This document shows positions 96-51,783 of a stretch of DNA of 64,000 nt, in pieces. A program made the translations under genes and the position numbers. Every line of letters begins with the position of its first letter. The stretch's first letter is position 1. Origin of the DNA: a virus; the IMG/VR virus record IMGVR_UViG_3300009034_000011. One strand, given 5' to 3'. Below the pieces are notes generated by a model. The model made no database searches. It saw only the letters and a list, made by a program, of their open reading frames with translations, and was not told the DNA's origin.

Positions 96-298
96 ATAAG
101 ATCTGACAATCTACTCCGAGCACAGTCCCGTACTAGGGAATCGGTACTTACCAAAAACTCCGGCAGCTCCTTAGCACTCATCTTCCCAATTAACTGTTCT
201 GCCAAGGAACCACAAACATAATGTTGATCGTTACTATTATTAAAGGGATCGTTACGTTCCTTTATAAGATATCGCAATATAATTATATCATCAGTCAT
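86..298 (-). CDS. small protein with C-terminal HEAT-like motif (paralog family member); C-terminus overlaps tRNA-Ala 5' end
   Basis: 70 aa ending in ELPEFLVSTDSLVRDCARSRLSDL, matching the family motif LPEyL-x6-VRxxAxxRLxxL. Confidence 0.5.
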   Translation of the reverse strand: MTDDIIILRYLIKERNDPFNNSNDQHYVCGSLAEQLIGKMSAKELPEFLVSTDSLVRDCARSRLSDLMGW

Positions 299-906
299 CC
301 GGAAACACTTCGGGCAAAGTCGATAGCCATCTGTTTAGCGTCTTCCATCGTCTTAGCTGCCCACTCTCCTCTTCCTAATTCTATTACACAATTCTCCCTA
401 GAACAGCGGACACGACCTCTTACAGGCCCGGTAACTTCTAGAAGACCCTCTGGTTTATCGGGATCAATAGCTACTACTTTTCTCCAGGTACTGGCATTAC
501 ACATATCGCCTTCCCTGAAACTACAATCGTAACCGATCTGTGTAAAGCTACTCGGTATATAGTGACAATCACCTTTCTTACAAGTACTACCTATTGAAAA
601 CCCATATATTGCTCGATGAGACCACCCATACCACTTTTTGGTCTTAGGAGCGTATCCTATAGAACACACGGAATGATCTGGAGCTGTTCTCTCAAATTGA
701 GTAATTCCAAATCTATGAACAAGTCTATATGCCCGCTTAGAACTCCCTATATAATCTCCGGACTTAGTATGGGCCATACCAGTCATCTCAACGAGCTCAC
801 AATCATCCTCAACCCCCATGGCTTTAGGGTCCACAATCTCTGTACATATATCATAGTACTTCATACGCCGCGTTATTATAACTTCTACAACCCCGCGTTT
901 ACTCAT
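295..906 (-). CDS. hypothetical protein
   Basis: 203-aa ORF with plausible start. No recognisable motif. Confidence 0.45.
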   Translation of the reverse strand: MSKRGVVEVIITRRMKYYDICTEIVDPKAMGVEDDCELVEMTGMAHTKSGDYIGSSKRAYRLVHRFGITQFERTAPDHSVCSIGYAPKTKKWYGWSHRAIYGFSIGSTCKKGDCHYIPSSFTQIGYDCSFREGDMCNASTWRKVVAIDPDKPEGLLEVTGPVRGRVRCSRENCVIELGRGEWAAKTMEDAKQMAIDFARSVSG

Positions 907-3250: not shown

Positions 3251-3877
3251 TTATCTAATCTCATCTACAATTCCCATTCTCAATGCCTGATCGGAGTCGA
3301 ACCATAGATCATGCTCCAAAATCTCATCCAGCTTCTCAGGAGGTACTTTAGTATATTGGCCATATACATCCTTGATCATCTCCATGAATCTATCCAGGTT
3401 CTTCATCTCATCCTTAAGCTCTGAGTACTTACCCCACCACATAGAGGAGAGTTGGTGAATCAGGATATGTGCATGGGGCCGCATAATCCTATGCTCGGCA
3501 GAAACGGTAATGAATGTTGCAGCACTTGCTACTGCCCCATCTACAATGCTTGTTACGGGCGCTTGACATCGTACTACTTCATCCATGGCAGCGAACCCCG
3601 CAAGGAGGCTACCACCATAGGAATGGACGTGGAGGAATATATTGGCTGGATCCCTATCCTGGATCTTCGCTTCGTGCATCAGCTGGTTGGATGTTTCCCG
3701 GAGCCTCCTATTCAGCTGCAGGACCTGTTCTGAGGATACATCTGAGTAGAAATATATCCTATTATCTACAACTTCTACGTATGAGGGTTCCTTAATGATA
3801 TCCGCAGTGGGCTTCCTTGGAACCTCAGGTGCACTGCCACCATACCGATTGCTGCGCCATAGATCCGATGTACCCAT
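3251..3877 (-). CDS. clpP: ClpP-family serine protease (possible prohead protease)
   Basis: 208 aa with ClpP-like fold signature around HVHSYGGSLLAGFAAMD, plus His and Asp downstream. GGAGG Shine-Dalgarno upstream. Confidence 0.6.
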   Translation of the reverse strand: MGTSDLWRSNRYGGSAPEVPRKPTADIIKEPSYVEVVDNRIYFYSDVSSEQVLQLNRRLRETSNQLMHEAKIQDRDPANIFLHVHSYGGSLLAGFAAMDEVVRCQAPVTSIVDGAVASAATFITVSAEHRIMRPHAHILIHQLSSMWWGKYSELKDEMKNLDRFMEMIKDVYGQYTKVPPEKLDEILEHDLWFDSDQALRMGIVDEIR

Positions 3878-11855: not shown

Positions 11856-11930
11856 GTTGGTGCACCCGGAAAGATTCGAACTTTCAACCACTAGCTTATC
11901 AGTCTAGCACTCTACCATTGAGTTACGGAT
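11856..11930 (-). tRNA. tRNA-Ile (anticodon GAU)
   Basis: Acceptor GCAUCCG/CGGGUGC, anticodon loop CUGAUAA, T-arm GAAAG-UUCGAAU-CUUUC, A73, CCA. Confidence 0.7.
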
Positions 11931-11948
11931 GCATAAATCCAAATTCAA

Positions 11949-12044
11949 ATTGGTGGAGGCGGCGGTATTGAAACCGCGTCCACAGTACCATAATATGAAA
12001 CTAATTCTAATTAGTTCATAGTACCGCGTCGAATCCTTACGCCC
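11949..12044 (-). ncRNA. 96-nt tmRNA-like tRNA-like domain (TLD-only mini-tmRNA / tRNA-Ala mimic)
   Basis: 5' GGGGGCG-UAA-GGAUUCGACGCGG and 3' GGACGCGGUUUCAAUACCGCC-GCCUCC-A-CCA match the conserved tmRNA 5' element (GGGGCUG..GGAUUCGACGGG) and 3' element (GGACGCGGGUUCAACUCCCGCCAGCUCCACCA). The acceptor stem has a G3:U70 pair. The anticodon arm is replaced by a ~40-nt AU-rich imperfect hairpin. Confidence 0.6.
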
Positions 12045-12268
12045 CCACGTTTAGCGAGTTTCTTCAGTCTCTTCTGACCTAACTCTCTTACAACCTCTGA
12101 CCCATTAACTAATAACATAGGCAACTCCCCTAGAGAGAGTTCTCGTAATAACTTCCGAGCCTGGCGAATATAACCCAAACGGGCATAAGTCCCGATCAAA
12201 TCAACTTGCGAATCAAGCGTCCGACCTCTAAAATGGGAAAGAGCCTCTTTGGAAATCCTTATTGTCAT
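12011..12268 (-). CDS. HEAT-like motif protein (paralog family); last 11 codons overlap the 5' end of the tmRNA-TLD-like RNA
   Basis: LGELPMLLVNGSEVVRELGQKRLKKL, then the reading frame runs into GGGGGCGUAAGGAUUCGACGCGG. Confidence 0.5.
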   Translation of the reverse strand: MTIRISKEALSHFRGRTLDSQVDLIGTYARLGYIRQARKLLRELSLGELPMLLVNGSEVVRELGQKRLKKLAKRGGVRIRRGTMN

Positions 12269-12402
12269 TTCCGGAACCTACAACCCTTACATGGATTCAT
12301 TCTATTTCATAACCAAAATCATAACTGCCCAGAAAAACACTCCAATAGCAATTATTTCTACCGCTGATACCTCAATCATAACTAAACACCTCCGCCTGTA
12401 AA

Positions 12403-12678
12403 AGGTGGCCTTGGCCCAGGGAGTCGAACCCTGGTATAGCTCCGTCGCTGCTGTTACATGGCCCGCTCTCCCACCTCGTCACAGATAGGAGTTAAAGCAC
12501 TCGACGTACTCGCTAAGCTTTCCCTCGTGCCAGCAGAAGGTTGTGACGCACCAGAACTACAGGGACCGTGCCGACGGCCACCAAGATTAGGTACTGTGAA
12601 ATACTCGACCCGTCGCGAATCGGCCCTAACTATTGTAACTCGCAGAGCCCCCATAACCCCAGCGACCACCACCAAGGC
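12403..12678 (-). ncRNA. ~275-nt GC-rich structured RNA with tRNA-like 3' end; possible tmRNA-related RNA, identity unresolved
   Basis: No credible ORF on either strand across 12290-12890. Local GC is clearly above flanking DNA. The 5' GCCUUGG pairs with the 3' CCAAGGC over 7 bp. A T-arm CAGGG-UUCGACU-CCCUG lies 3'-proximal. The 5' third contains GGGCCGAUUCGCGACGGG, resembling the tmRNA GGAUUCGACGGG element. No convincing tag ORF was found. Confidence 0.4.
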
Positions 12679-12894
12679 TACTTATGGCTGTGCCAGGTAA
12701 ACACCTGTAAGCATTACCTGTAGGTAAATAACCCAAGTAAATACCCGCTCCGCTGCATACTGGACTGTGGTCCCCGTCCTCAATAGCTACCTCACAGTAC
12801 CTGAATCAAAGTCGCTCTAGCTCTCTCCTCACTGACTAGTACAGCTTCCTCTCCCAACGGATCGGCGAGTGCTTGCACTAGAGCGACTCAAAAT

Positions 12895-17177: not shown

Positions 17178-17717
17178 TTAGAACCCCAATCTGTTCCTGA
17201 TATACGGACGGTCGAGGTAGTGACCCGTCTCATCTATCTCCCGGTCGAAAAGCGGGTCGACAATCTTCCCGAATAACTCCCTGCCGTAATTCTTGATTAC
17301 AATCCCTTCTATTCTCAAAGCACCAAATGCGGACTCAATACCCAAAAGATCGAAAAGCTGCCCAAGACCCTTAACAACACCCTCAAACAATATTGGTGGA
17401 GTTGGAATATCCAGTGCCCCGAAAACAACCTGCTTTTCAGAAAGCCCAAGAAAACACTCTTGCTGATAATCCCATATATCTAAACCTACCTCCCATTTGG
17501 GAAGCTGAGTATAAGCTACAGTGTGCTTACGCTTGAGGTTCTCTTTGAAAATAGCATAACCCTCATCCTCTAGTTCTATCAACTTACCATCCAGCTTTTC
17601 TTCCACAACTACAGGCCCGGTAAGAAGCTCATCTATCTCCTCAGAAGTCAAATAACGTTTGCTCCTCCTGGGATACCCTGGAATCTCAATTCGATATATC
17701 TTAGGGTATCTCTTCAT
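17178..17717 (-). CDS. hypothetical protein
   Basis: 179-aa ORF. Confidence 0.4.
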   Translation of the reverse strand: MKRYPKIYRIEIPGYPRRSKRYLTSEEIDELLTGPVVVEEKLDGKLIELEDEGYAIFKENLKRKHTVAYTQLPKWEVGLDIWDYQQECFLGLSEKQVVFGALDIPTPPILFEGVVKGLGQLFDLLGIESAFGALRIEGIVIKNYGRELFGKIVDPLFDREIDETGHYLDRPYIRNRLGF

Positions 17718-19333: not shown

Positions 19334-19406
19334 TGGAGGCCACGGCAAGGACTTGAACCTTACGTCCAGAGTCTCCTCTAGCTCTACCCCTGAGTCTTAC
19401 GTGACC
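19334..19406 (-). ncRNA. tRNA-like RNA lacking an anticodon loop (acceptor, T-arm and CCA present; anticodon arm replaced by a 6-bp GAGA-tetraloop hairpin)
   Basis: Acceptor GGUCACG/CGUGGCC, T-arm UAAGG-UUCAAGU-CCUUG, discriminator U, encoded CCA, a D-like CUC..GAG stem, and a central CUAGAG-GAGA-CUCUGG hairpin instead of a 7-nt anticodon loop. Confidence 0.45.
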
Positions 19407-24071: not shown

Positions 24072-25781
24072 CTAGACTCGTCCAAGCAGGAACTCACTAA
24101 TCACATTTGGCGTCGCAGTATCAAACCCTACGACATCAAGCATTCCCACGTCAGTAGGATCTGCTATAGAGATATCATTAGCAGTCATACCTACAACAAC
24201 CAACTTAGCCTCTGGATTGATTGTATTACGGTAGCGATCCAAAGCCTGAGATGGATGCTCGTCACCATACCACGTCTCACTATCTGTATAGACGAGAAAT
24301 GCATCATACACCACATCCGAGTTTTTCTTATGCATTTGCTCAGCCCACAAGATTGGGAGAGCGCAGTTAGTTCCACCGAAGTTAAGCCCATCGGTATACC
24401 TTACAAGGTCGTCTAATCTTTGACGCTTGGACATATTGACTTCCACGAAGCGATGACAAAACGCCATAACAGATACCAAAGGCTCAACCTTGTAAGTAAC
24501 CATCGACATTGCACATGCACCCATCCTTGGCGTCATAGCAGGAATGCCAACGATATTACCTCCGTTCATGGAGCCGCTAACATCGAGACCAATGACGATT
24601 CTCTTGTTAGTTGGTTCAACATTCTTAAAAGCCTTGTAGAAGGCGCTATCTAGCGCGTCAACTACATCACCAACAACATTCCACTCGCCACGACCTCGTG
24701 CTCCACGGCCCTGACCGTAAGTCACCATAGCGGCTAGTACACCAAGTGGGTGTACTCTAGCTTTCGCTAAGATTTCCTCGTCAGTTAGCTGATCGCATAC
24801 CCTTTGGATAACCTTAAAGTTACCGTCAACTAGAAGGCCAACCTTGGACATATTGCCAAGGTTCCGTATCATGGCAGTCATCGGCATGCCACGACCCGCC
24901 GTAAGCATTGCTGCCCAAACCTTCTTATCGCTAAGAAACTGGGTTGGAATGCACTCACGAGGCAAGTTATGCTCCCTGATGAGCTTAACTATATCGGCAA
25001 CGGAGGTAGCTGCCTTGGCTTCCTCGAAAGCTCCGATGAACTTTGGCATAACCTCCCAGTGTTCTGCTTTTGCCTTATCAACTACCCAAGCGTACAGAGC
25101 ACCGTGAGGGCTGATATAATATTTCCCCTTCTCCACTGCATCTGCACTTAAGGTATCTGGTACAGAAACTGCCTTATTTGGGTTTGGGTGTGCAAGTCTC
25201 AACACGTCAAAGTGAGACCAGCCATCTCTCGACTGGTACTTAGCTAACTGGTACGCAAGGCCATCTGCATTTCTACCATTGTACCAACTCGCGATAGCAT
25301 CTTTATAACCCCTACCCCAACCCCGGAATGCTTCGGTATAGGCAACGAGGTGGAATAGATGAGTTCCAATACGAGCTATCTTTGGTATAGCTTGAAAAGC
25401 AGCTCTCCTCGTTTCTATATCCTGTAGAGTTGGATGCTTGCCTCCTGCTCCGAGACACATAGCTAAGACAAAGAGGGCGTAATCATTCTTAGGTGCCCTG
25501 CCGGAATCACTTATCTCAACTATCGTGTCAACTACCCTCTTACCGTCTTCTTTAATACAACGGCGGGTAGAATCGCACGCATCCTTGGTCAGTTTTCTTT
25601 CACTTACGTAATAAGTGCCCCCTTCTGTACCAAGGACTAGAAAACGATTCAATAGCATCCAGTCGTCCACCTTCCAGGCAAACCCTCCGGCATTGTTCAT
25701 CTCCATATCTTCACGGCCTGGAATGCGCTCTGTTTGAGGCGTCTTAATTCTAACCCCTTGCGTAAGTAAATGCTTCCTCAT
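24072..25781 (-). CDS. rsr: Ro60 ortholog Rsr (TROVE domain plus C-terminal vWA with MIDAS motif)
   Basis: 569 aa. C-terminal IVIGLDVSGSMNGG MIDAS motif plus downstream T and D. N-terminal ~380 aa helical, TROVE-like. Flanked on its upstream side by Y RNA-like genes. Confidence 0.6.
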   Translation of the reverse strand: MRKHLLTQGVRIKTPQTERIPGREDMEMNNAGGFAWKVDDWMLLNRFLVLGTEGGTYYVSERKLTKDACDSTRRCIKEDGKRVVDTIVEISDSGRAPKNDYALFVLAMCLGAGGKHPTLQDIETRRAAFQAIPKIARIGTHLFHLVAYTEAFRGWGRGYKDAIASWYNGRNADGLAYQLAKYQSRDGWSHFDVLRLAHPNPNKAVSVPDTLSADAVEKGKYYISPHGALYAWVVDKAKAEHWEVMPKFIGAFEEAKAATSVADIVKLIREHNLPRECIPTQFLSDKKVWAAMLTAGRGMPMTAMIRNLGNMSKVGLLVDGNFKVIQRVCDQLTDEEILAKARVHPLGVLAAMVTYGQGRGARGRGEWNVVGDVVDALDSAFYKAFKNVEPTNKRIVIGLDVSGSMNGGNIVGIPAMTPRMGACAMSMVTYKVEPLVSVMAFCHRFVEVNMSKRQRLDDLVRYTDGLNFGGTNCALPILWAEQMHKKNSDVVYDAFLVYTDSETWYGDEHPSQALDRYRNTINPEAKLVVVGMTANDISIADPTDVGMLDVVGFDTATPNVISEFLLGRV

Positions 25782-26978: not shown

Positions 26979-27109
26979 GACAATATATTGGACGGTGAAC
27001 CCCAACTTTTAGTGCGGCTATGGGAGATGGATGTTGCGGTCCACCGTCCGGAGGCGGATTCCGACGAGTTGTGCGGCTATGGGAGATGAATTGTCGGAAT
27101 CCGCCCGAG

Positions 27110-27181
27110 TCATATATGGGCAAGTGGTTGACAGTGGGAGGAGCCAAATTTGCGGTTCGGTAACCCACTGCCTCCGGCCCA
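27110..27181 (-). ncRNA. Y RNA-like unit 11 (mini Y: Ro-binding helix only)
   Basis: 5' UUGGGCCGGAGGCAGUGGGUUACC pairs with 3' CUCCUCCCACUG..GCCCA. It is followed (27000-27110) by a 13-bp hairpin GGCGGAUUCCGAC..GUCGGAAUCCGCC and a duplicated AUCUCCCAUAGCCGCAC motif. Confidence 0.5.
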
Positions 27182-27449
27182 ATTAACATAATCACTCACC
27201 TGCTGGAACTAAAAGACGCTTCATAGGTTCTGAAGGACTTTCCTGGAGTTTACAATCTCCCAAGTATCGGGATACTGAATCGACAAGAGGAACAGCAACT
27301 GCATAAGCGTTTTTTGTCACAGACAGATCAGCACCCGCGGCAGCTTGCTGCAACTTCTTCGCGACCAATACCATCAGTTCCGTTCGTACAGCCGGTGTCA
27401 ACTCAACAACTTCAAGACTAGCCATACCTTTACCTCACGCCGCAATTAA

Positions 27450-27596
27450 ATGCTGGACAAGGTGTCGCAAATGGGACGCTTTCCGACGCTCCACCACTGA
27501 GCTATGCGCCGTGCGGCCGAACCGTTCAGAGGCACAACTGGAATCGAACCAGTGACATCCGGAATTGAATGGTAACCCACCTACTACGGTCCAGCA
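27450..27596 (-). ncRNA. Y RNA-like unit 10 with permuted tRNA-like module
   Basis: 5' CUGGACCGUAGUAGGUGGGUUACC, then T-arm ACUGG-UUCGAUU-CCAGU, a loop-closed acceptor-like hairpin, D-arm GCUC-AGUGGUGGA-GAGC, then the 3' Ro strand CCCAUUUGCGACACCUUGUCCAG. Confidence 0.55.
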
Positions 27597-27609
27597 AGAT
27601 AAAATCGTT

Positions 27610-27730
27610 GGGCTAAAATTGCCAATGGGTGAAATGGTTCCGGGGGTTGGATTCAAACCAACGCGTATCGCCCTCGGGCGGTGCTCTATCAACTGAGCTA
27701 CCCTGGATAACCCATACAGCAGCGGCCCAA
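27610..27730 (-). ncRNA. Y RNA-like unit 9 with embedded near-complete tRNA-like domain (acceptor, D-arm, mini-hairpin, T-arm, CCA) in normal order
   Basis: 5' UUGGGCCGCUGCUGUAUGGGUUAUC, then UCCAGGG-UA-GCUC-AGUUGAUA-GAGC, then CGCC-CGAG-GGCG hairpin in place of the anticodon arm, then GUUGG-UUUGAAU-CCAAC, then CCCCGGA-A-CCA, then 3' Ro strand CCCAUUGGCAAUUUUAGCCCAA. Confidence 0.5.
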
Positions 27731-27746
27731 CGATGCTCTCTTTCAA

Positions 27747-27821
27747 TTTGGCTGTCCTGGTCGGCTTCGAACCGACAACCCCCTGATTAACAGTCAGGTG
27801 CGCTACCAGTTGCGCCACAGG
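27747..27821 (-). tRNA. tRNA-Asn (anticodon GUU), embedded in the Y-RNA array
   Basis: Acceptor UGUCCUG/CAGGACA, D GCGC/GCGC, anticodon stem CCUGA/UCAGG, loop CUGUUAA, T-arm GUCGG-UUCGAAG-CCGAC, G73, CCA. Confidence 0.75.
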
Positions 27822-28084
27822 ACAACAAGTGTGGGTTGATAGTAAATAAAAGATATGTATAAGACAATATCTCCCGCCTATCAACCCACTCCGGGCAAAT
27901 GGCAGATGAGGTCGAGCATGCACACAATGTACATTAAGCTCTACGATTATTACAGTCCGTCGACCGGTGCTTTTTTGACGGTCCACGCGACCGATGTATT
28001 TATCGTTTATACTCGGTCCACATGACCGAGTACGTTTATCTAGGTCCGCCGACCGTGGTTTCATCGTATGGTAATCCTCATCTA

Positions 28085-28240
28085 ACGGCCCGAATAAGAT
28101 GAATGAACGGACAAGGTGCGGAGTGGACCTTTTTATTGAGCTACCACCCCAAGAACATCGAGGTAGGCTGGACACGAACCAGCAACACTCAGCTTGATAA
28201 GCTGATGCTCTATCCGATAACCCACATCCTACGGTCCGTT
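28085..28240 (-). ncRNA. Y RNA-like unit 8 with permuted tRNA-like module
   Basis: 5' CGGACCGUAGGAUGUGGGUUAUC, T-arm GCUGG-UUCGUGU-CCAGC, acceptor-like hairpin CUACC..GGUAG, 3' strand ..CCUUGUCCG. Confidence 0.45.
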
Positions 28241-28244
28241 CAAG

Positions 28245-28385
28245 AAGATATGAATGGGCAAAAGGTGTCAGTGGATGTGTTCGCGCTGAGCCATTCAGCT
28301 TCGGACGCCATAATGACGCCCGACGGGATTCGAACCCGCAACCTCGCCTCCCTAAGAAGATAACCCACAAGACATCGGCCCATTC
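28245..28385 (-). ncRNA. Y RNA-like unit 7 with permuted tRNA-like module
   Basis: 5' UGGGCCGAUGUCUUGUGGGUUAUC, T-arm GCGGG-UUCGAAU-CCCGU, loop-closed acceptor mimic CGGGCGUC-AUUAU-GGCGUCCG, 3' strand CCACUGACACC..GCCCA. Confidence 0.55.
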
Positions 28386-28394
28386 ATGATTAAA

Positions 28395-28522
28395 TGAATG
28401 GACAAAAGGTTGCACGAAGATGTTTGACGCTCTAACCAGTTGAGCTACTACCTTTCGGTAGGGAAGGACTTGAACCTTCCATCGCCTCATTGGAAGTGAG
28501 ATAACCTTCACGCGTCCGGTCC
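28395..28522 (-). ncRNA. Y RNA-like unit 6 with permuted tRNA-like module
   Basis: 5' UGGACCGGACGCGUGAAGGUUAUC, T-arm GGAAGG-UUCAAGU-CCUUCC, acceptor mimic CUACC-GAAA-GGUAG, D-arm GCUC-AACUGGUUA-GAGC, 3' strand CUUCGUG..UGUCCA. Flanked by the CCAUUCAU-GAUUAA-AUGAAUGG inter-unit hairpin. Confidence 0.6.
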
Positions 28523-28534
28523 ATTCATGCTTAT

Positions 28535-28672
28535 CACGATTAAATGAATGGACAAAAGTGTACAAGGAGTTTTTTACGCGCTCTGGCCGCTGAGCTACCC
28601 AGGCATTCGGAGCCTGGGGTCGGGAATCGAACCCGACGACCTCGCCATTAACATTGGATAACCCTCGTACGT
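28535..28672 (-). ncRNA. Y RNA-like unit 5 with permuted tRNA-like module
   Basis: 5' UGGACCGACGUACGAGGGUUAUC, T-arm GUCGGG-UUCGAUU-CCCGAC, acceptor mimic CCCAGGC-UCCGAAU-GCCUGGG, D-arm GCUC-AGCGGCCA-GAGC, 3' strand CCUUGUAC..UGUCCA. Confidence 0.6.
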
Positions 28673-28674
28673 CG

Positions 28675-28769
28675 GTCCATTCATACTTGTTGTCAACTAA
28701 CAGACGGGCAGGTGGTGTGCGAGGTGCACACGTTTTGGTCTGTCGACCAATGTAATGATAACCCTCGCA
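28675..28769 (-). ncRNA. Y RNA-like unit 4 (mini Y, no tRNA-like module)
   Basis: 5' UGGGCCGGAGUGCGAGGGUUAUC pairs with 3' CCUCGCACACCACCUGCCCG. Internal hairpin GGUC-GACA-GACC. Confidence 0.5.
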
Positions 28770-28774
28770 CTCCG

Positions 28775-28963
28775 GCCCATTAGAGATAGCGACCCCGCTG
28801 CAGGTACTATCCCTATATTTGGGGTGGACAAAGAATGCTAATGGAGTTGACTCCCCTTTGGGGAGCTGCCTAACCACTAGGCTATCCGGGCGCGCGACCC
28901 GAGACTCTCGTCCCGGGCCTGAGCCCGGAATAAGATTCGAACTTATGTGATAACCCATCAACT
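28775..28963 (-). ncRNA. Y RNA-like unit 3 (long form with tRNA-like elements)
   Basis: 5' UGGACCGGAGUUGAUGGGUUAUC, weak T-arm AUAAG-UUCGAAU-CUUAU, CCGGGC-UCAG-GCCCGG hairpin, D-arm GCCU-AGUGGUUA-GGC, CUCCCC-AAA-GGGGAG hairpin, 3' strand ..UUGUCCACC. Confidence 0.45.
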
Positions 28964-28965
28964 CC

Positions 28966-29047
28966 GGTCCACCGCCATATTCGAAACGAGCAGGCAAAGA
29001 AGGCGATAATGGGAAGTCAAATGGTAGATAACCCACTATCTCCGGCC
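28966..29047 (-). ncRNA. Y RNA-like unit 2 (mini Y)
   Basis: 5' UGGGCCGGAGAUAGUGGGUUAUC with 3' partner CCCAUUAUCGCC. Confidence 0.5.
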
Positions 29048-29049
29048 CA

Positions 29050-29147
29050 CCCGATAATTGTCGGGGAGGACTTAATGGGCGAGGGTCGAGTGAGGGAACG
29101 TCAATTTCCTGGTTGATAACCCTCACTCTCCGGCCCATCTAATCTCT
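29050..29147 (-). ncRNA. Y RNA-like unit 1 (mini Y), first unit of the array
   Basis: 5' UGGGCCGGAGAGUGAGGGUUAUC, a 23-nt loop, then CCCUCACUCGACCCUCGCCC forming a long bulged helix. Confidence 0.55.
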
Positions 29148-49290: not shown

Positions 49291-51783
49291 CTAAAACTGG
49301 CCTAGATCCAGGTAATCGCCACCCCAACGCTCAACAACCCCAAGGTCGATCTTCAGAGGAACGATAATATGCCGAATGGGCGCCAACATCTGTTCTCGCA
49401 TAATGTTAACTGCATCACGTACTTCACCTTTGGGCGCCTCAGCTACTATCTCATCATGTATCTGCATTAACAACCTTGCCTTAAGCCCGTTACCCCTAAA
49501 AGCTTCATCAATCCTAGTTAAGGCAAGATTAGTCACATCAGATGCAAGACTCTGTATGGGGCTGTTCCGCGCCTGTCTCGCTGCCATAGCAGAGACAGTA
49601 GTATCCGTACTATGTATTTCAGGTAATCGCCTATATCTTCCAAACAGATTCTTAACGTAACCCTGTTGTTTGACGAAGGCTTCTTGATCTTTCAACCATC
49701 GAGAAGATATAGGGAACATCTTAAAAAACGAGTCAATAAACGCCTGAGCCTCTGTATCGGACATCTCAAACTCTGCCGCTAAACTTCTAGCTCCCCTCCC
49801 ATAGATAAGACCGAAGACGACGCCTTTCACTTTCGTACGCTCGTCTATTGAGATCTGATCCGGCGACTTGTTCAGCAAAATGGAACCTAGATGACTGTGT
49901 ACATCATCTGTTGCTAAAACCTCAATAAACTTCGGATCTTTACTGTAGTTAGCCCACATGCGTAGCTCGTGCTGAGAATAGTCACCTCTCACCAGGTACC
50001 AGTCCTCGGTAGGAATAAATAAACCCTTGATAATGGACTCTCGGGGAATATTTTGTAAATTTGGACGTGAAGAAGCCAATCTCCCAGTAGCGGTTCCATG
50101 CTGCAGATAGCTGGTATGTAACCGACCATCCGGAGCAAGCACCTTCAATAGACCAGCTATATAGGTACTATTCAATTTAGCCGTCCGCCTGTACTCCAAA
50201 AGTAAATCTAATACGGGATGTTTAGTTCTTTCCCGTAGCGCTTTGAGGGTAGCTTCATCTGTCGAAGGCCCGCCCTTCGGCGTCCTGAGACGTGGATCTT
50301 TTAACGCAGGAAGCCCTAACTGCTCATAAAGTAGGGATCGGAGCTGCTTAGTGGATCTGACATTCACATCCTCTTCTGCATAACTGTTTATTTCCTCCTG
50401 GAGCTCCTCAAGTCTATCATCAAACTCTTTACTAAGCTCCGACATACGCTCTGTATCCACCCTTACCCCTACAAGCTCCATATACATAAGCGTTTTCATA
50501 ACCTTTGTAATAATCTTACTATAGAATTTATATAGTTGACTACTCTCTTTAAGCCCTGACCTAAACAACTCATAGAGGCGGAATGTAGCATCAGCATCCG
50601 CTAACGCATAGGATTTTAAAGTAGAAACAGGAATTTTCCCATAATGTTTTTCCTCAATAGGAATTCTACTCCGCTTCACTTCATTAAACGCACTCTCAAG
50701 GTCTTTAGAATAGTTCCCGAGATCAGTAAACCTAGCCGCGAGAGGCTTGAGACCGTGAGCTGTATTCTCATCCAACAAATGATGCATCAACATGGAATCA
50801 CTAAGGGTTCCACGGATATCCCAACCAAAGTAATGGATAAGAAATTTCAAGTCAAACTTTAAGTTATGGCCAATCTTACCTATACTAGGATCTTCAAATA
50901 CCTGCCGTAACCCCTCTTGTATAAGTGCCCAGTCACTCCTAGGCCATACCCAGTTACCATCTTCCTCCATGGGAAGATACCAAGCTGAAAATAAGCCAGT
51001 GGAAAAGACCATACAAAGTATACGGTCTGCCCAAAAGTTAAAACCTGTAGTTTCAATATCTATAACAAACTGTTCAGACTCACGTAAATCCTGAATTAGC
51101 TCCCCAAAGCTTTCCAGATCGTGAACTTCCCTATATATCACAGATCGTTGTGGCGGGACAGTATAACCATCATCAATAAACTGCTTCACCTTCTCCGCAA
51201 CATCTCTGAGAAGGACCTCATTTGACGGATTCCTTAGTACTGCGGCAGGATGAATACATGGGAGAATATAACACCCGAACTCCTCACTCTCCTCAAAAAT
51301 TCCACTTCGACTCATTATACCGGAGGGTGTACCCTTAGGAACTACACCGTAGTACCCAATGTTACCAAGTGCCACAATAAGCTTTCGGGGATAGGCAGTG
51401 ATTTCATATTGTAGATACTTCTCCCTACATATCCGACACTCCTCAGAAGTTGGGGTTCGATTATTAGTAGGGCGACACTTAACAGTATTAGTGACAAAAG
51501 CAGCTTTACGAGTATAAATACCCACTGCGTTAAATGTGTCTTCTAATTTCTTCCCAGCTCTACCAACAAAGGCCTCACCTTCTCTTTCCTCATCCCTTCC
51601 GGGAGCCTCACCCACAATAACTATTGGGGAGTTGAAATCACCGCGGGGATATACCATTTCGCGAGACTCATTAGTAGGTCGTATGTCTCCCGAAACGGTA
51701 CAATCAGTACACTGTGGAAAATACGAACCCCAAAGCCAGCCCTCTGGGTCCCTTTGCACCTCTGCCTGCATCTCAGTAGTCAT
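49291..51783 (-). CDS. polA: family-A DNA polymerase (Pol I-like) with N-terminal family-4 UDG-like domain and 3'-5' exonuclease
   Basis: GEAPG...FVGRAGKKL (UDG family 4), VIDIETTG exo I, KVKGVVFGLIYGRGA motif B, LMQIHDEIV motif C. Confidence 0.75.
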   Translation of the reverse strand: MTTEMQAEVQRDPEGWLWGSYFPQCTDCTVSGDIRPTNESREMVYPRGDFNSPIVIVGEAPGRDEEREGEAFVGRAGKKLEDTFNAVGIYTRKAAFVTNTVKCRPTNNRTPTSEECRICREKYLQYEITAYPRKLIVALGNIGYYGVVPKGTPSGIMSRSGIFEESEEFGCYILPCIHPAAVLRNPSNEVLLRDVAEKVKQFIDDGYTVPPQRSVIYREVHDLESFGELIQDLRESEQFVIDIETTGFNFWADRILCMVFSTGLFSAWYLPMEEDGNWVWPRSDWALIQEGLRQVFEDPSIGKIGHNLKFDLKFLIHYFGWDIRGTLSDSMLMHHLLDENTAHGLKPLAARFTDLGNYSKDLESAFNEVKRSRIPIEEKHYGKIPVSTLKSYALADADATFRLYELFRSGLKESSQLYKFYSKIITKVMKTLMYMELVGVRVDTERMSELSKEFDDRLEELQEEINSYAEEDVNVRSTKQLRSLLYEQLGLPALKDPRLRTPKGGPSTDEATLKALRERTKHPVLDLLLEYRRTAKLNSTYIAGLLKVLAPDGRLHTSYLQHGTATGRLASSRPNLQNIPRESIIKGLFIPTEDWYLVRGDYSQHELRMWANYSKDPKFIEVLATDDVHSHLGSILLNKSPDQISIDERTKVKGVVFGLIYGRGARSLAAEFEMSDTEAQAFIDSFFKMFPISSRWLKDQEAFVKQQGYVKNLFGRYRRLPEIHSTDTTVSAMAARQARNSPIQSLASDVTNLALTRIDEAFRGNGLKARLLMQIHDEIVAEAPKGEVRDAVNIMREQMLAPIRHIIVPLKIDLGVVERWGGDYLDLGQF

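What the first reader, a model, noticed from the sequence alone, without database searches (positions are those of the whole stretch)
11949..12044. 96-nt tmRNA tRNA-like-domain mimic (TLD-only mini-tmRNA) with G3:U70
The minus-strand RNA reads GGGGGCG-UAA-GGAUUCGACGCGG...GUGGACGCGGUUUCAAUACCGCC-GCCUCC-A-CCA. Both ends are near-copies of the universally conserved tmRNA 5' and 3' elements, and the acceptor stem carries the Ala identity pair G3:U70. The mRNA-like domain and pseudoknots are replaced by one ~40-nt AU-rich hairpin, resembling the reduced TLD-only ssrA of jakobid mitochondria. It could be alanylated and bind SmpB/EF-Tu. It might act as a minimal ribosome-rescue RNA, a decoy for host trans-translation, or a primer-like element. 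A HEAT-like-motif small gene reads 11 codons into its 5' end.
Basis: seen in the sequence. Interest (0 to 1): 0.75.

Follow-up and report, generated by a model that had tools for sequence, protein, structure and literature searches.

The report
Phage mini-tmRNA lacking the messenger part
A large phage carries, inside its tRNA gene array, a 96-nt RNA gene that keeps only the alanine-accepting tRNA-like end of bacterial tmRNA; one such phage RNA (DS6A) was already known, but this scan shows the type is common in uncultured phages and probably interferes with the host's ribosome-rescue system.

Summary
It has a 7-bp acceptor stem with G3:U70, A73 and encoded CCA, a stemless GGAUUCGAC D-loop analogue, one 46-nt hairpin replacing the coding region and pseudoknots, and a T-arm. 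Rfam tmRNA scores it 60.8 bits (threshold 47); ARAGORN calls nothing.

The kind is already known. Mycobacteriophage DS6A carries a "TLD only" tmRNA, and a similar molecule inhibited tmRNA in E. coli, perhaps by titrating SmpB. A model built from other sequences scores DS6A at 56.6 bits, the window element at 52.4 and ordinary tRNAs at 28.6 or less.

A truncated IMG/VR scan found 76 such RNAs in 75 of 120 loci (52 unique sequences among the 72 motif-filtered loci). They show strong covariation and near-exclusive U70, and annotation misses almost all of them.

The window copy is atypical: it has a 6-nt T-loop and a U-A innermost T-stem pair. It was not found in the fetched parts of related phages.

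Most likely it is an alanine-chargeable decoy that competes with host tmRNA for SmpB and stalled ribosomes. Tag-free rescue and a decaying relic remain possible. Verdict: new member of a known kind.

The parts
11951..12046 (-). Whole TLD-only mini-tmRNA gene (96 nt, G1 = 12046, CCA end = 11951)
   Evidence: Rfam RF00023 60.8 bits, E 2.7e-21; class model R1 52.4 bits; fold z = -5.0
12040..12046 (-). Acceptor stem 5' strand GGGGGCG (G3 = 12044)
   Evidence: Pairs over 7 bp with 11955-11961
12028..12039 (-). Stemless D-loop analogue UAAGGAUUCGAC
   Evidence: Aligned to the tmRNA consensus GGaUUCGAC; TCGAC is invariant in the class alignment
11982..12027 (-). P2/H2-like hairpin (46 nt) replacing the mRNA-like domain and pseudoknots
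   Evidence: 12 consecutive bp from its base, the longest of 55 class members. ARAGORN reports no tmRNA gene or tag peptide here
11978..11981 (-). Conserved GGAC junction between P2 and the T-arm
   Evidence: Present as GGAC in 54 of 55 class members; DS6A has GCAC
11962..11977 (-). T-arm: GCGGU / UUCAAU / ACCGC (5 bp, 6-nt loop). The alternative register is a 4-bp stem with a canonical UUCAAUA loop
   Evidence: The 1-nt deletion relative to consensus is shared only with L068. The innermost pair is U-A, while 54 of 55 members have G-C
11955..11961 (-). Acceptor stem 3' strand CGCCUCC (U70 = 11957)
11951..11954 (-). Discriminator A73 plus genome-encoded CCA
11858..11932 (-). tRNA-Ile(GAU), 18 nt downstream on the same strand; the mini-tmRNA sits inside the phage tRNA array
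   Evidence: ARAGORN and Rfam
12011..12268 (-). 85-aa ORF whose last 36 nt overlap the RNA's 5' part; doubtful gene
   Evidence: No Pfam or PHROG hit; the only database match is itself
12375..12402 (-). Sigma-70-like promoter match (TTTACA-16-TATGAT, 10/12) upstream of the ORF and RNA; weak evidence

Best explanation
This is a phage-encoded, one-piece tmRNA reduced to its tRNA-like domain.

Shown: it keeps every sequence feature that lets tmRNA behave as tRNA-Ala. These are the G1-C72, G2-C71 and G3.U70 pairs, A73, the encoded CCA, the stemless GGAUUCGAC D-loop analogue, the GGAC junction and a T-arm. It has lost the tag-coding region and all pseudoknots. It lies 18 nt upstream of tRNA-Ile inside a same-strand array of more than 30 tRNA genes.

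Inferred mechanism:
- It is transcribed and trimmed with the tRNAs by RNase P and 3' processing.
- It is charged with alanine by the host AlaRS.
- It binds host SmpB at its elbow, and EF-Tu.
- It thereby competes with the host's full tmRNA for SmpB and for stalled ribosomes.

Because it has no resume codon, it cannot add a degradation tag or deliver a stop codon. The net effect is to block or short-circuit host trans-translation tagging during infection.
For: Identity:
- Rfam tmRNA above its gathering score, with only the two TLD halves aligned.
- Stable three-helix fold.
- Model R1, built without this sequence or DS6A, scores it 52.4 bits. DS6A scores 56.6 and the best ordinary tRNA 28.6.

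Precedent:
- DS6A is listed as 'TLD only'. [quoted passage not shown] 2014, PMC4131195; PMC11915505).
- A TLD-only tmRNA accepts the peptide on ribosomes in vitro (Shimizu and Ueda 2006, cited in PMC3895274).
- The features needed for AlaRS and SmpB are G3.U70, A73, the D-loop/T-loop interaction and the elbow (PMC3968760).

The class is under selection:
- 76 R1 hits in 75 of 120 IMG/VR loci.
- 97.6% of cells paired against 77.3% in shuffles (0 of 500 shuffles reach it). 13 of 17 pairs show double changes. Covariation score is 0.559 against 0.129 or less for slid controls.
- T-stem and P2 pairing were not imposed by the search.
- The control scan with a non-U base at position 70 gave 1 chance-like acceptor in 125 matches, against 72 in 120 with U70. 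The alanine identity pair is therefore retained.

Context:
- No integrase in the 64-kb window.
- The viral copies are not flanked by integrases.
- The genome-collection copy L010 lies in phage DNA (T7-type portal).
- No SmpB or ArfB-like gene lies beside any copy, so host factors must be used.
Against: - No expression, charging or binding data exist for this RNA.
- Its T-arm is an outlier. It has a 6-nt loop (2 of 55 members) and a U-A pair where 54 of 55 have the G53-C61-type pair. The D-loop/T-loop interaction is required for SmpB binding, so affinity could be impaired.
- It was not found in the fetched parts of related phages at 54-60% protein identity, including the syntenic spot in L018. 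There is therefore no lineage-level conservation evidence.
- An ORF call overlaps its 5' part.
- The strict retention of the alanine identity set fits a ribosome-entering RNA better than a pure SmpB sponge. Mao et al. found that charging is not needed for inhibition.
- I could not read the primary paper.
- Only 64 kb of a contig of at least 86.8 kb was visible, so a phage SmpB or a full tmRNA elsewhere cannot be excluded.
Confidence: 0.6

Rival explanations
1. Tag-free ribosome rescue. Ala-mini-tmRNA with host SmpB enters stalled ribosomes and takes over the nascent chain. The peptidyl-RNA is then released by a host factor that acts on empty A sites (ArfB, ArfA/RF2, or drop-off plus Pth). Ribosomes are recycled for phage translation without marking proteins for ClpXP degradation.
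For: - The G1-G3/U70/A73/CCA set is retained across diverse families, while acceptor positions 4-7 covary. This suggests charging matters.
- A TLD-only RNA accepts the peptide in vitro.
- CDS-less mitochondrial and plastid tmRNAs are conserved with imported SmpB and are thought to help with incomplete mRNAs.
- The window copy sits among translation-supporting genes: more than 30 tRNAs and an RNA ligase.
Against: - The only experiment on such a molecule showed inhibition, not rescue.
- No ArfB, Pth or RF-like gene was found in the window or beside any viral copy.
- ArfB or ArfA can rescue the same ribosomes without any TLD, so the added value is unclear.
Confidence: 0.2
2. Non-functional relic. 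A full-length phage tmRNA suffered an internal deletion that joined the two strands of helix 2. The remnant is decaying and does nothing.
For: - 1-nt deletion in the T-arm and loss of the near-universal G-C pair next to the T-loop.
- Absent from the fetched parts of relatives.
- It is the only copy of its sequence type found. No match in IMG/VR to its own pattern, and none in deposited phages.
- Overlapped by a called ORF.
Against: - All seven acceptor pairs, A73, CCA, the D-loop analogue and the GGAC junction are intact.
- The hairpin is a clean 12-bp-based rod with z = -5.
- The same architecture recurs 76 times with covariation.
- Another class member, L068, also has a 6-nt T-loop.
- A T-loop with a single bulged base is sterically plausible (inference).
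Confidence: 0.15
3. Integration-site remnant (attP) copied from a host ssrA gene, or an aberrant or intron-containing tRNA-Ala.
For: tmRNA genes are frequent phage integration sites, and ssrA fragments occur in prophages. Loci L003/L006/L007 and L013 show 3'-only TLD fragments of that sort.
Against: - Both the 5' and 3' halves are present and pair.
- No integrase in 64 kb.
- The genome looks lytic, with its own replication module.
- There is no anticodon arm, and ARAGORN calls neither tRNA nor tmRNA.
- A normal tRNA-Ala(UGC) already exists at 20-95.
Confidence: 0.03

Closest known systems
TLD-only tmRNA of mycobacteriophage DS6A (Mao et al. 2009, RNA Biol 6:355; tmRNA Website tmID 11587)
   Same: Phage-borne, one-piece, about 80-100 nt. 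Acceptor stem with G3:U70 and A73, stemless D-loop analogue, a single hairpin in place of the coding region and pseudoknots, and a T-arm. I located it at JN698994 28478-28560. The same class model scores both (56.6 and 52.4 bits). Both are unannotated in their records.
   Different: - No detectable sequence relatedness beyond the TLD consensus.
- DS6A is a 60-kb temperate actinophage with an integrase; this is a large lytic-type phage with more than 30 tRNAs.
- DS6A has a canonical 7-nt T-loop, GGUCGAC/GCAC junction motifs and no encoded CCA (CUA).
- The window copy has a 6-nt T-loop, a longer hairpin and an encoded CCA.
- Rfam RF00023 reaches its gathering score here but not in DS6A.
CDS-less organellar tmRNAs (jakobid and oomycete mitochondria, Rfam RF02544; ~65-bp Mallomonadaceae plastid forms)
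   Same: They lack a tag reading frame yet are conserved and depend on SmpB supplied in trans.
   Different: The mitochondrial genes are usually permuted. No mitochondrial-tmRNA hit was returned at E <= 1. They are organellar, not viral, and are presumed to aid rescue rather than inhibit it.
Engineered TLD-only tmRNA fragments used in biochemistry and crystallography (Shimizu and Ueda 2006; Gutmann 2003; Bessho 2007)
   Same: Same minimal architecture. Reported to bind SmpB and to accept the nascent peptide on stalled ribosomes in vitro. Their use as alanylation substrates is from my own recollection.
   Different: Laboratory constructs derived from bacterial tmRNAs with canonical T-arms, not natural genes.
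Full-length phage tmRNAs (Bxz1-type mycobacteriophages, Bacillus phage G, Melnitz; here also CcrPW and Tunturi_4)
   Same: Phage-encoded ssrA homologs, sometimes inside tRNA arrays (CcrPW).
   Different: They keep the coding piece and tag reading frame (one-piece or permuted). The window element does not.

Membership tests
tmRNA (Rfam RF00023), as a complete functional tmRNA | Covariance-model score at or above the curated gathering score | tested here: met
   60.8 bits against 47
tmRNA (Rfam RF00023), as a complete functional tmRNA | Acceptor stem with G3.U70, A73 and a 3' CCA | tested here: met
   GGGGGCG/CGCCUCC-A-CCA
tmRNA (Rfam RF00023), as a complete functional tmRNA | Stemless D-loop analogue plus a T stem-loop able to interact with it | tested here: inconclusive
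   GGAUUCGAC is present. The T-arm pairs, but with a 6-nt loop and a U-A closing pair. The tertiary interaction cannot be tested.
tmRNA (Rfam RF00023), as a complete functional tmRNA | mRNA-like domain with a resume codon, tag reading frame and stop codon | tested here: not met
   286 internal model positions are absent. ARAGORN reports no tmRNA gene or tag peptide. Only a 46-nt hairpin remains.
tmRNA (Rfam RF00023), as a complete functional tmRNA | Pseudoknots PK1-PK4 | tested here: not met
   No sequence is left for them
Phage TLD-only tmRNA (DS6A type) | About 70-100 nt, made only of an acceptor stem, D-loop analogue, one hairpin and a T-arm | tested here: met
   96 nt with exactly these parts
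Phage TLD-only tmRNA (DS6A type) | Recognised by a model of the class that also recognises DS6A and rejects tRNAs | tested here: met
   R1 scores: window 52.4, DS6A 56.6, best tRNA 28.6 bits. Neither the window nor DS6A was in the seed.
Phage TLD-only tmRNA (DS6A type) | Encoded in phage DNA | tested here: met
   The window holds phage replication genes, a Tad6 anti-defence homolog and more than 30 tRNAs
Phage TLD-only tmRNA (DS6A type) | Inhibits host tmRNA-SmpB function when expressed | not testable with these tools
   Reported only for a DS6A-like molecule in E. coli
Phage TLD-only tmRNA (DS6A type) | Alanylation by AlaRS and binding of SmpB | not testable with these tools
   The identity elements are present, but there is no biochemistry
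Mitochondrial tmRNA (Rfam RF02544) | Match to the family covariance model | tested here: not met
   The search covered all 4227 Rfam families and returned no mitochondrial-tmRNA hit at E <= 1 in 11900-12100. If that family shares the tmRNA clan, an overlapping weaker hit would have been hidden.
Mitochondrial tmRNA (Rfam RF02544) | Usually permuted gene order (3' half before 5' half) | tested here: not met
   Standard 5'-to-3' order. tmRNA_permuted scores only 25.5 bits, below its gathering score of 47.
tRNA-Ala or intron-containing tRNA | Cloverleaf with D-stem and anticodon arm | tested here: not met
   ARAGORN makes no call. The fold has no anticodon arm. An overlapping Rfam tRNA hit would be hidden by clan competition, so Rfam is not informative on this point.
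ssrA-derived attP fragment | Only the 3' part of ssrA, next to an integrase | tested here: not met
   Both halves are present. No integrase among 43 scanned proteins of the window.

The most novel reading that the evidence does not exclude
TLD-only mini-tmRNAs are not a DS6A curiosity. They form a widespread, structurally constrained phage RNA class that preserves alanine identity and is missed by standard annotation. Phages use it to disable or re-route host trans-translation, for example to stop tagging of phage proteins or to blunt defences that work by stalling ribosomes. The window copy is a functional member that has been recruited into a tRNA array and tolerates a shortened T-loop.
Probability: 0.4. 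Interest if true: 0.75.

Novelty: new member of a known kind. Interest (0 to 1): 0.5.

Why it matters
Trans-translation is the main bacterial ribosome-rescue pathway and an antibiotic target. A natural RNA that blocks or re-routes it would be a useful tool and a clue to how phages handle stalled ribosomes.

The single published phage example (DS6A) has stood alone. Here a second, unrelated large phage carries one. A truncated IMG/VR scan turned up 76 more, with covariation and a strictly kept G3:U70. ARAGORN flags only 2 of the 72 motif-filtered loci.

That makes the question 'what do phages do with a tRNA-like domain that cannot tag?' directly testable, with many natural variants. These include versions with 6-nt T-loops that probe what SmpB and AlaRS tolerate.

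Tried and rejected
1. Close relatives by DNA: megablast and blastn of the region against deposited phages found nothing meaningful. Window-derived patterns in IMG/VR gave 0 or only chance hits.

2. The metagenome and genome pattern scans used a 3' motif that, as I realised later, cannot match the window's own 1-nt-short T-arm. They therefore tested only for canonical-T-arm forms. They yielded one true copy (L010) plus 3'-only fragments and chance hits.

3. Relatives via proteins:
- The 314-aa neighbour gave phages at 54-60% identity.
- No mini-tmRNA was found in their fetched parts.
- The source contig could not be fetched.
- The 85-aa ORF has no homolog.

4. Using the conserved upstream RNA as a marker in IMG/VR gave 0 hits.

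5. SmpB or ArfB-like genes in the window or beside the viral copies: none found by tblastn. Sensitivity was limited, with a single query each.

6. BLAST of three viral mini families against deposited phages: the only hits, in Tunturi_4 and CcrPW, proved to be full permuted tmRNAs, not minis.

7. The idea that a conserved UAA in the hairpin acts as a minimal stop-only message: UAA is not enriched (29 of 52 segments against 24.7 expected, maximum 33). Rejected.

8. attP or integrase association of the viral copies: the neighbours are terminase subunits, HNH, peptidase and RNR, with no integrase. Rejected.

9. The primary paper by Mao et al. 2009 is not held.

Full report
**Observation**

On the minus strand, window 12046 to 11951 reads GGGGGCG-UAAGGAUUCGAC-[46-nt hairpin]-GGAC-GCGGU-UUCAAU-ACCGC-CGCCUCC-A-CCA.

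- Rfam's tmRNA model (RF00023) matches it at 60.8 bits against a gathering score of 47, E = 2.7e-21 for the whole window.
- The alignment covers model positions 1-374, but 286 internal positions are replaced by about 14 aligned nt. Only the two halves of the tRNA-like domain (TLD) are matched.
- tmRNA_permuted scores 25.5 bits, below its threshold, and no mitochondrial-tmRNA hit appears at E <= 1.
- ARAGORN finds 30 tRNAs in the window but calls nothing here.
- The minimum-free-energy fold is a 7-bp acceptor stem, a long hairpin and a T-arm. Its energy is -38.0 kcal/mol against -22.6 +/- 3.1 for shuffles, z = -5.0.

**Anatomy**

- The acceptor pairs are G1-C72, G2-C71, G3.U70, G4-C69, G5-C68, C6-G67 and G7-C66, followed by A73 and an encoded CCA. 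G3.U70 plus A73 are the AlaRS identity elements (PMC3968760).
- The stemless D-loop analogue GGAUUCGAC and the GGAC junction, which form the SmpB-bound elbow region in tmRNA, are present.
- The T-arm deviates by 1 nt from the consensus. It reads either as a 5-bp stem with a 6-nt loop and a U-A closing pair, or as a 4-bp stem with a canonical UUCAAUA loop.
- ARAGORN reports no tmRNA gene or tag peptide, and there is no room for pseudoknots.

**Surroundings**

- The RNA lies 18 nt upstream of tRNA-Ile(GAU), inside a same-strand array of more than 30 tRNA genes spanning about 1-28 kb.
- An 85-aa ORF (12011-12268) runs 36 nt into its 5' part. The ORF has no family hit and no homolog except its own JGI gene call, so it is doubtful.
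- A promoter-like site (12402-12375) and a terminator-like hairpin lie just upstream. This is weak evidence.
- The window is a lytic-type large phage:
  - replication genes: PolA fused to a UDG domain, RNR, DnaB, primase, RecA-like and gp32-like proteins;
  - 7-deazaguanine genes;
  - Ro60/TROVE, ClpP, an RNA ligase, SPFH/flotillin and a Tad6 Thoeris-inhibitor homolog.
- No integrase, SmpB, ArfB or Pth was found.
- PolA is only about 30% identical to any deposited phage.

**Relatives of this phage**

The 314-aa neighbour gene has relatives at 54-60% identity. Their contigs (L015, L018, L019, L021-23, L148, L149) carry tRNA arrays and Ro60, but no mini-tmRNA in the parts I could fetch, including the syntenic spot in L018. 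There is therefore no evidence of conservation within this lineage.

**What is already known**

- A TLD-only tmRNA in a phage is already published. [quoted passage not shown] 2014, PMC4131195; also PMC11915505, citing Mao et al. 2009). I could not read the primary paper.
- I located the DS6A element at JN698994 28478-28560, 83 nt. It is unannotated and is the only match to its own sequence among 50,697 deposited records. Rfam's tmRNA model does not reach threshold there.
- CDS-less tmRNAs also exist in mitochondria and some plastids.
- A TLD-only construct accepts the peptide in vitro.

**A widespread class**

- 72 loci hold a complete 72-97-nt TLD-only RNA with a 7-bp acceptor stem. These give 52 unique sequences in several families.
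- The T-stem and the base of P2 were not required by the pattern or my filter. The T-stem is paired in 55 of 55 sequences at all five positions, with four pair types at position 2. The base of P2 is paired in 93.5% of cells, against 55% in partner shuffles.
- A covariance model (R1), built from 22 of these sequences without the window or DS6A, scores DS6A at 56.6 bits, the window element at 52.4, and no ordinary tRNA above 28.6.
- R1 finds 76 copies in 75 of the 120 loci.
- On the model-based alignment:
  - 97.6% of cells pair, against 77.3% in shuffles (0 of 500 reach it);
  - 13 of 17 pairs show double changes;
  - the covariation score is 0.559, against 0.129 or less for every slid control.
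- The pattern forced U70, so I ran a control with any other base at that position. It gave 125 matches, 2 perfect T-stems and 1 chance-like acceptor. The U70 scan gave 79 perfect T-stems and 72 acceptors in 120 matches. The alanine identity pair is a real class feature.

Context of these copies:

- 62 of 72 loci have no tRNA nearby, and 10 do.
- ARAGORN flags 2 of 72.
- Neighbours are on the same strand. In the largest families they are the small and large terminase subunits. There is no integrase.
- The one copy from the genome collection (L010, a 'Myxococcales MAG' contig) lies about 2.5 kb from a T7-type portal gene, so it is phage DNA.
- No SmpB-like or ArfB-like gene lies beside any copy.

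**Interpretation**

Identity as a TLD-only tmRNA of the DS6A kind is secure. Function is inferred.

- The only experimental precedent is inhibition of trans-translation. I take an alanine-chargeable competitor of host tmRNA for SmpB and stalled ribosomes as most likely (0.6 including identity).
- The strict retention of the charging determinants across divergent families suggests that these RNAs really enter the ribosome. This keeps tag-free rescue alive (0.2).
- The window copy's odd T-arm, its absence from the fetched parts of relatives and its lack of any close sequence relative keep a decaying relic possible (0.15).
- attP and odd-tRNA readings are effectively excluded.

**Caveats**

- The metagenome and genome scans used a 3' motif that the window's own element cannot match, so close relatives were never searched there.
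- The IMG/VR census is truncated and pattern-biased.
- Only 64 kb of a contig of at least 86.8 kb was visible.

**Verdict**

The element is real and correctly read by the first stage. It is a new member of a known kind. It has added value because the kind turns out to be common and largely unannotated.

Noticed in passing
window 12591-12800 (-), continuing to a T-arm at 12416-12434 (-); L018 20289-20690: A ~210-nt non-coding element is 89% identical between two phages whose proteins are about 58% identical. It is closed by a 14-bp stem, and every substitution in a predicted stem keeps the pair. About 170 variable nt follow, then a perfect T-arm (GGGUUCGACUCCC) in both phages. No Rfam hit at E <= 5, and it is absent from IMG/VR. 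It looks like an unknown structured RNA linked to the tRNA array.
   Followed up: partly
window 24072-25781 (-) and 27100-28700 (-): There is a Ro60/TROVE + vWA protein, conserved in all related phages. Nearby is a stretch conserved in all six frames with L015, holding weak tRNA-like Rfam hits (27638-27707, 28159-28231) and a borderline sRNA hit (27113-27186). These could be Y-RNA/YrlA-like partners. The 567-aa 'ORF' 27435-29138 overlaps tRNA-Asn and has no family hit, so it is probably spurious.
   Followed up: no
window 295-906 (-): Strong match to Tad6, a Type I Thoeris inhibitor (E = 1.8e-41), at one end of the tRNA array. This places an anti-defence gene in the same region as the mini-tmRNA.
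   Followed up: no
window 3251-3877 (-) and 17178-17717 (-): A ClpP-family protease and an RNA ligase are interspersed among the tRNA genes. They may be relevant to proteolysis of tagged proteins and to tRNA repair.
   Followed up: no
window 49291-51783 (-): The family A DNA polymerase carries an N-terminal uracil-DNA-glycosylase-superfamily domain. Together with QueC (fused to a glutamine amidotransferase), FolE and radical-SAM genes, this suggests 7-deazaguanine DNA modification.
   Followed up: no
window 19334-19406 (-): tRNA-shaped hit to model R1 (22.2 bits) at a position called by neither ARAGORN nor Rfam. It may be a degenerate tRNA-like element.
   Followed up: no
L146 1470-1879 (Tunturiibacter phage Tunturi_4, PP885687) and L147 1469-1763 (Caulobacter phage CcrPW, MH588545): Both deposited phages carry unannotated permuted (two-piece) tmRNA genes (RF04321, 79 and 90 bits). 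In Tunturi_4 the gene starts right after a 115-aa 'RF-1 domain peptide chain release factor' (ArfB-like) gene. In CcrPW it lies between tRNA-Cys and tRNA-fMet.
   Followed up: partly
L145 1562-1638 (-) and 5108-5183 (-): One viral contig carries two TLD-only mini-tmRNA copies about 3.5 kb apart (94.4 and 67.9 bits).
   Followed up: no
L018 19985-20150 (+): A ~165-nt stretch begins like a tRNA (GGGCGAUAGUUUAAUGGG) and ends in a T-arm plus ...GCCUACCA. ARAGORN and Rfam do not call it. It may be a tRNA with a long insertion, or another tRNA-like RNA.
   Followed up: no
L003/L006/L007 and L013: These metagenome and MAG sequences have a canonical tmRNA 3' half (T-arm plus acceptor strand) and a GGAUUCGAC motif, but no pairing 5' acceptor strand. 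They are likely ssrA fragments such as integration-site remnants.
   Followed up: no
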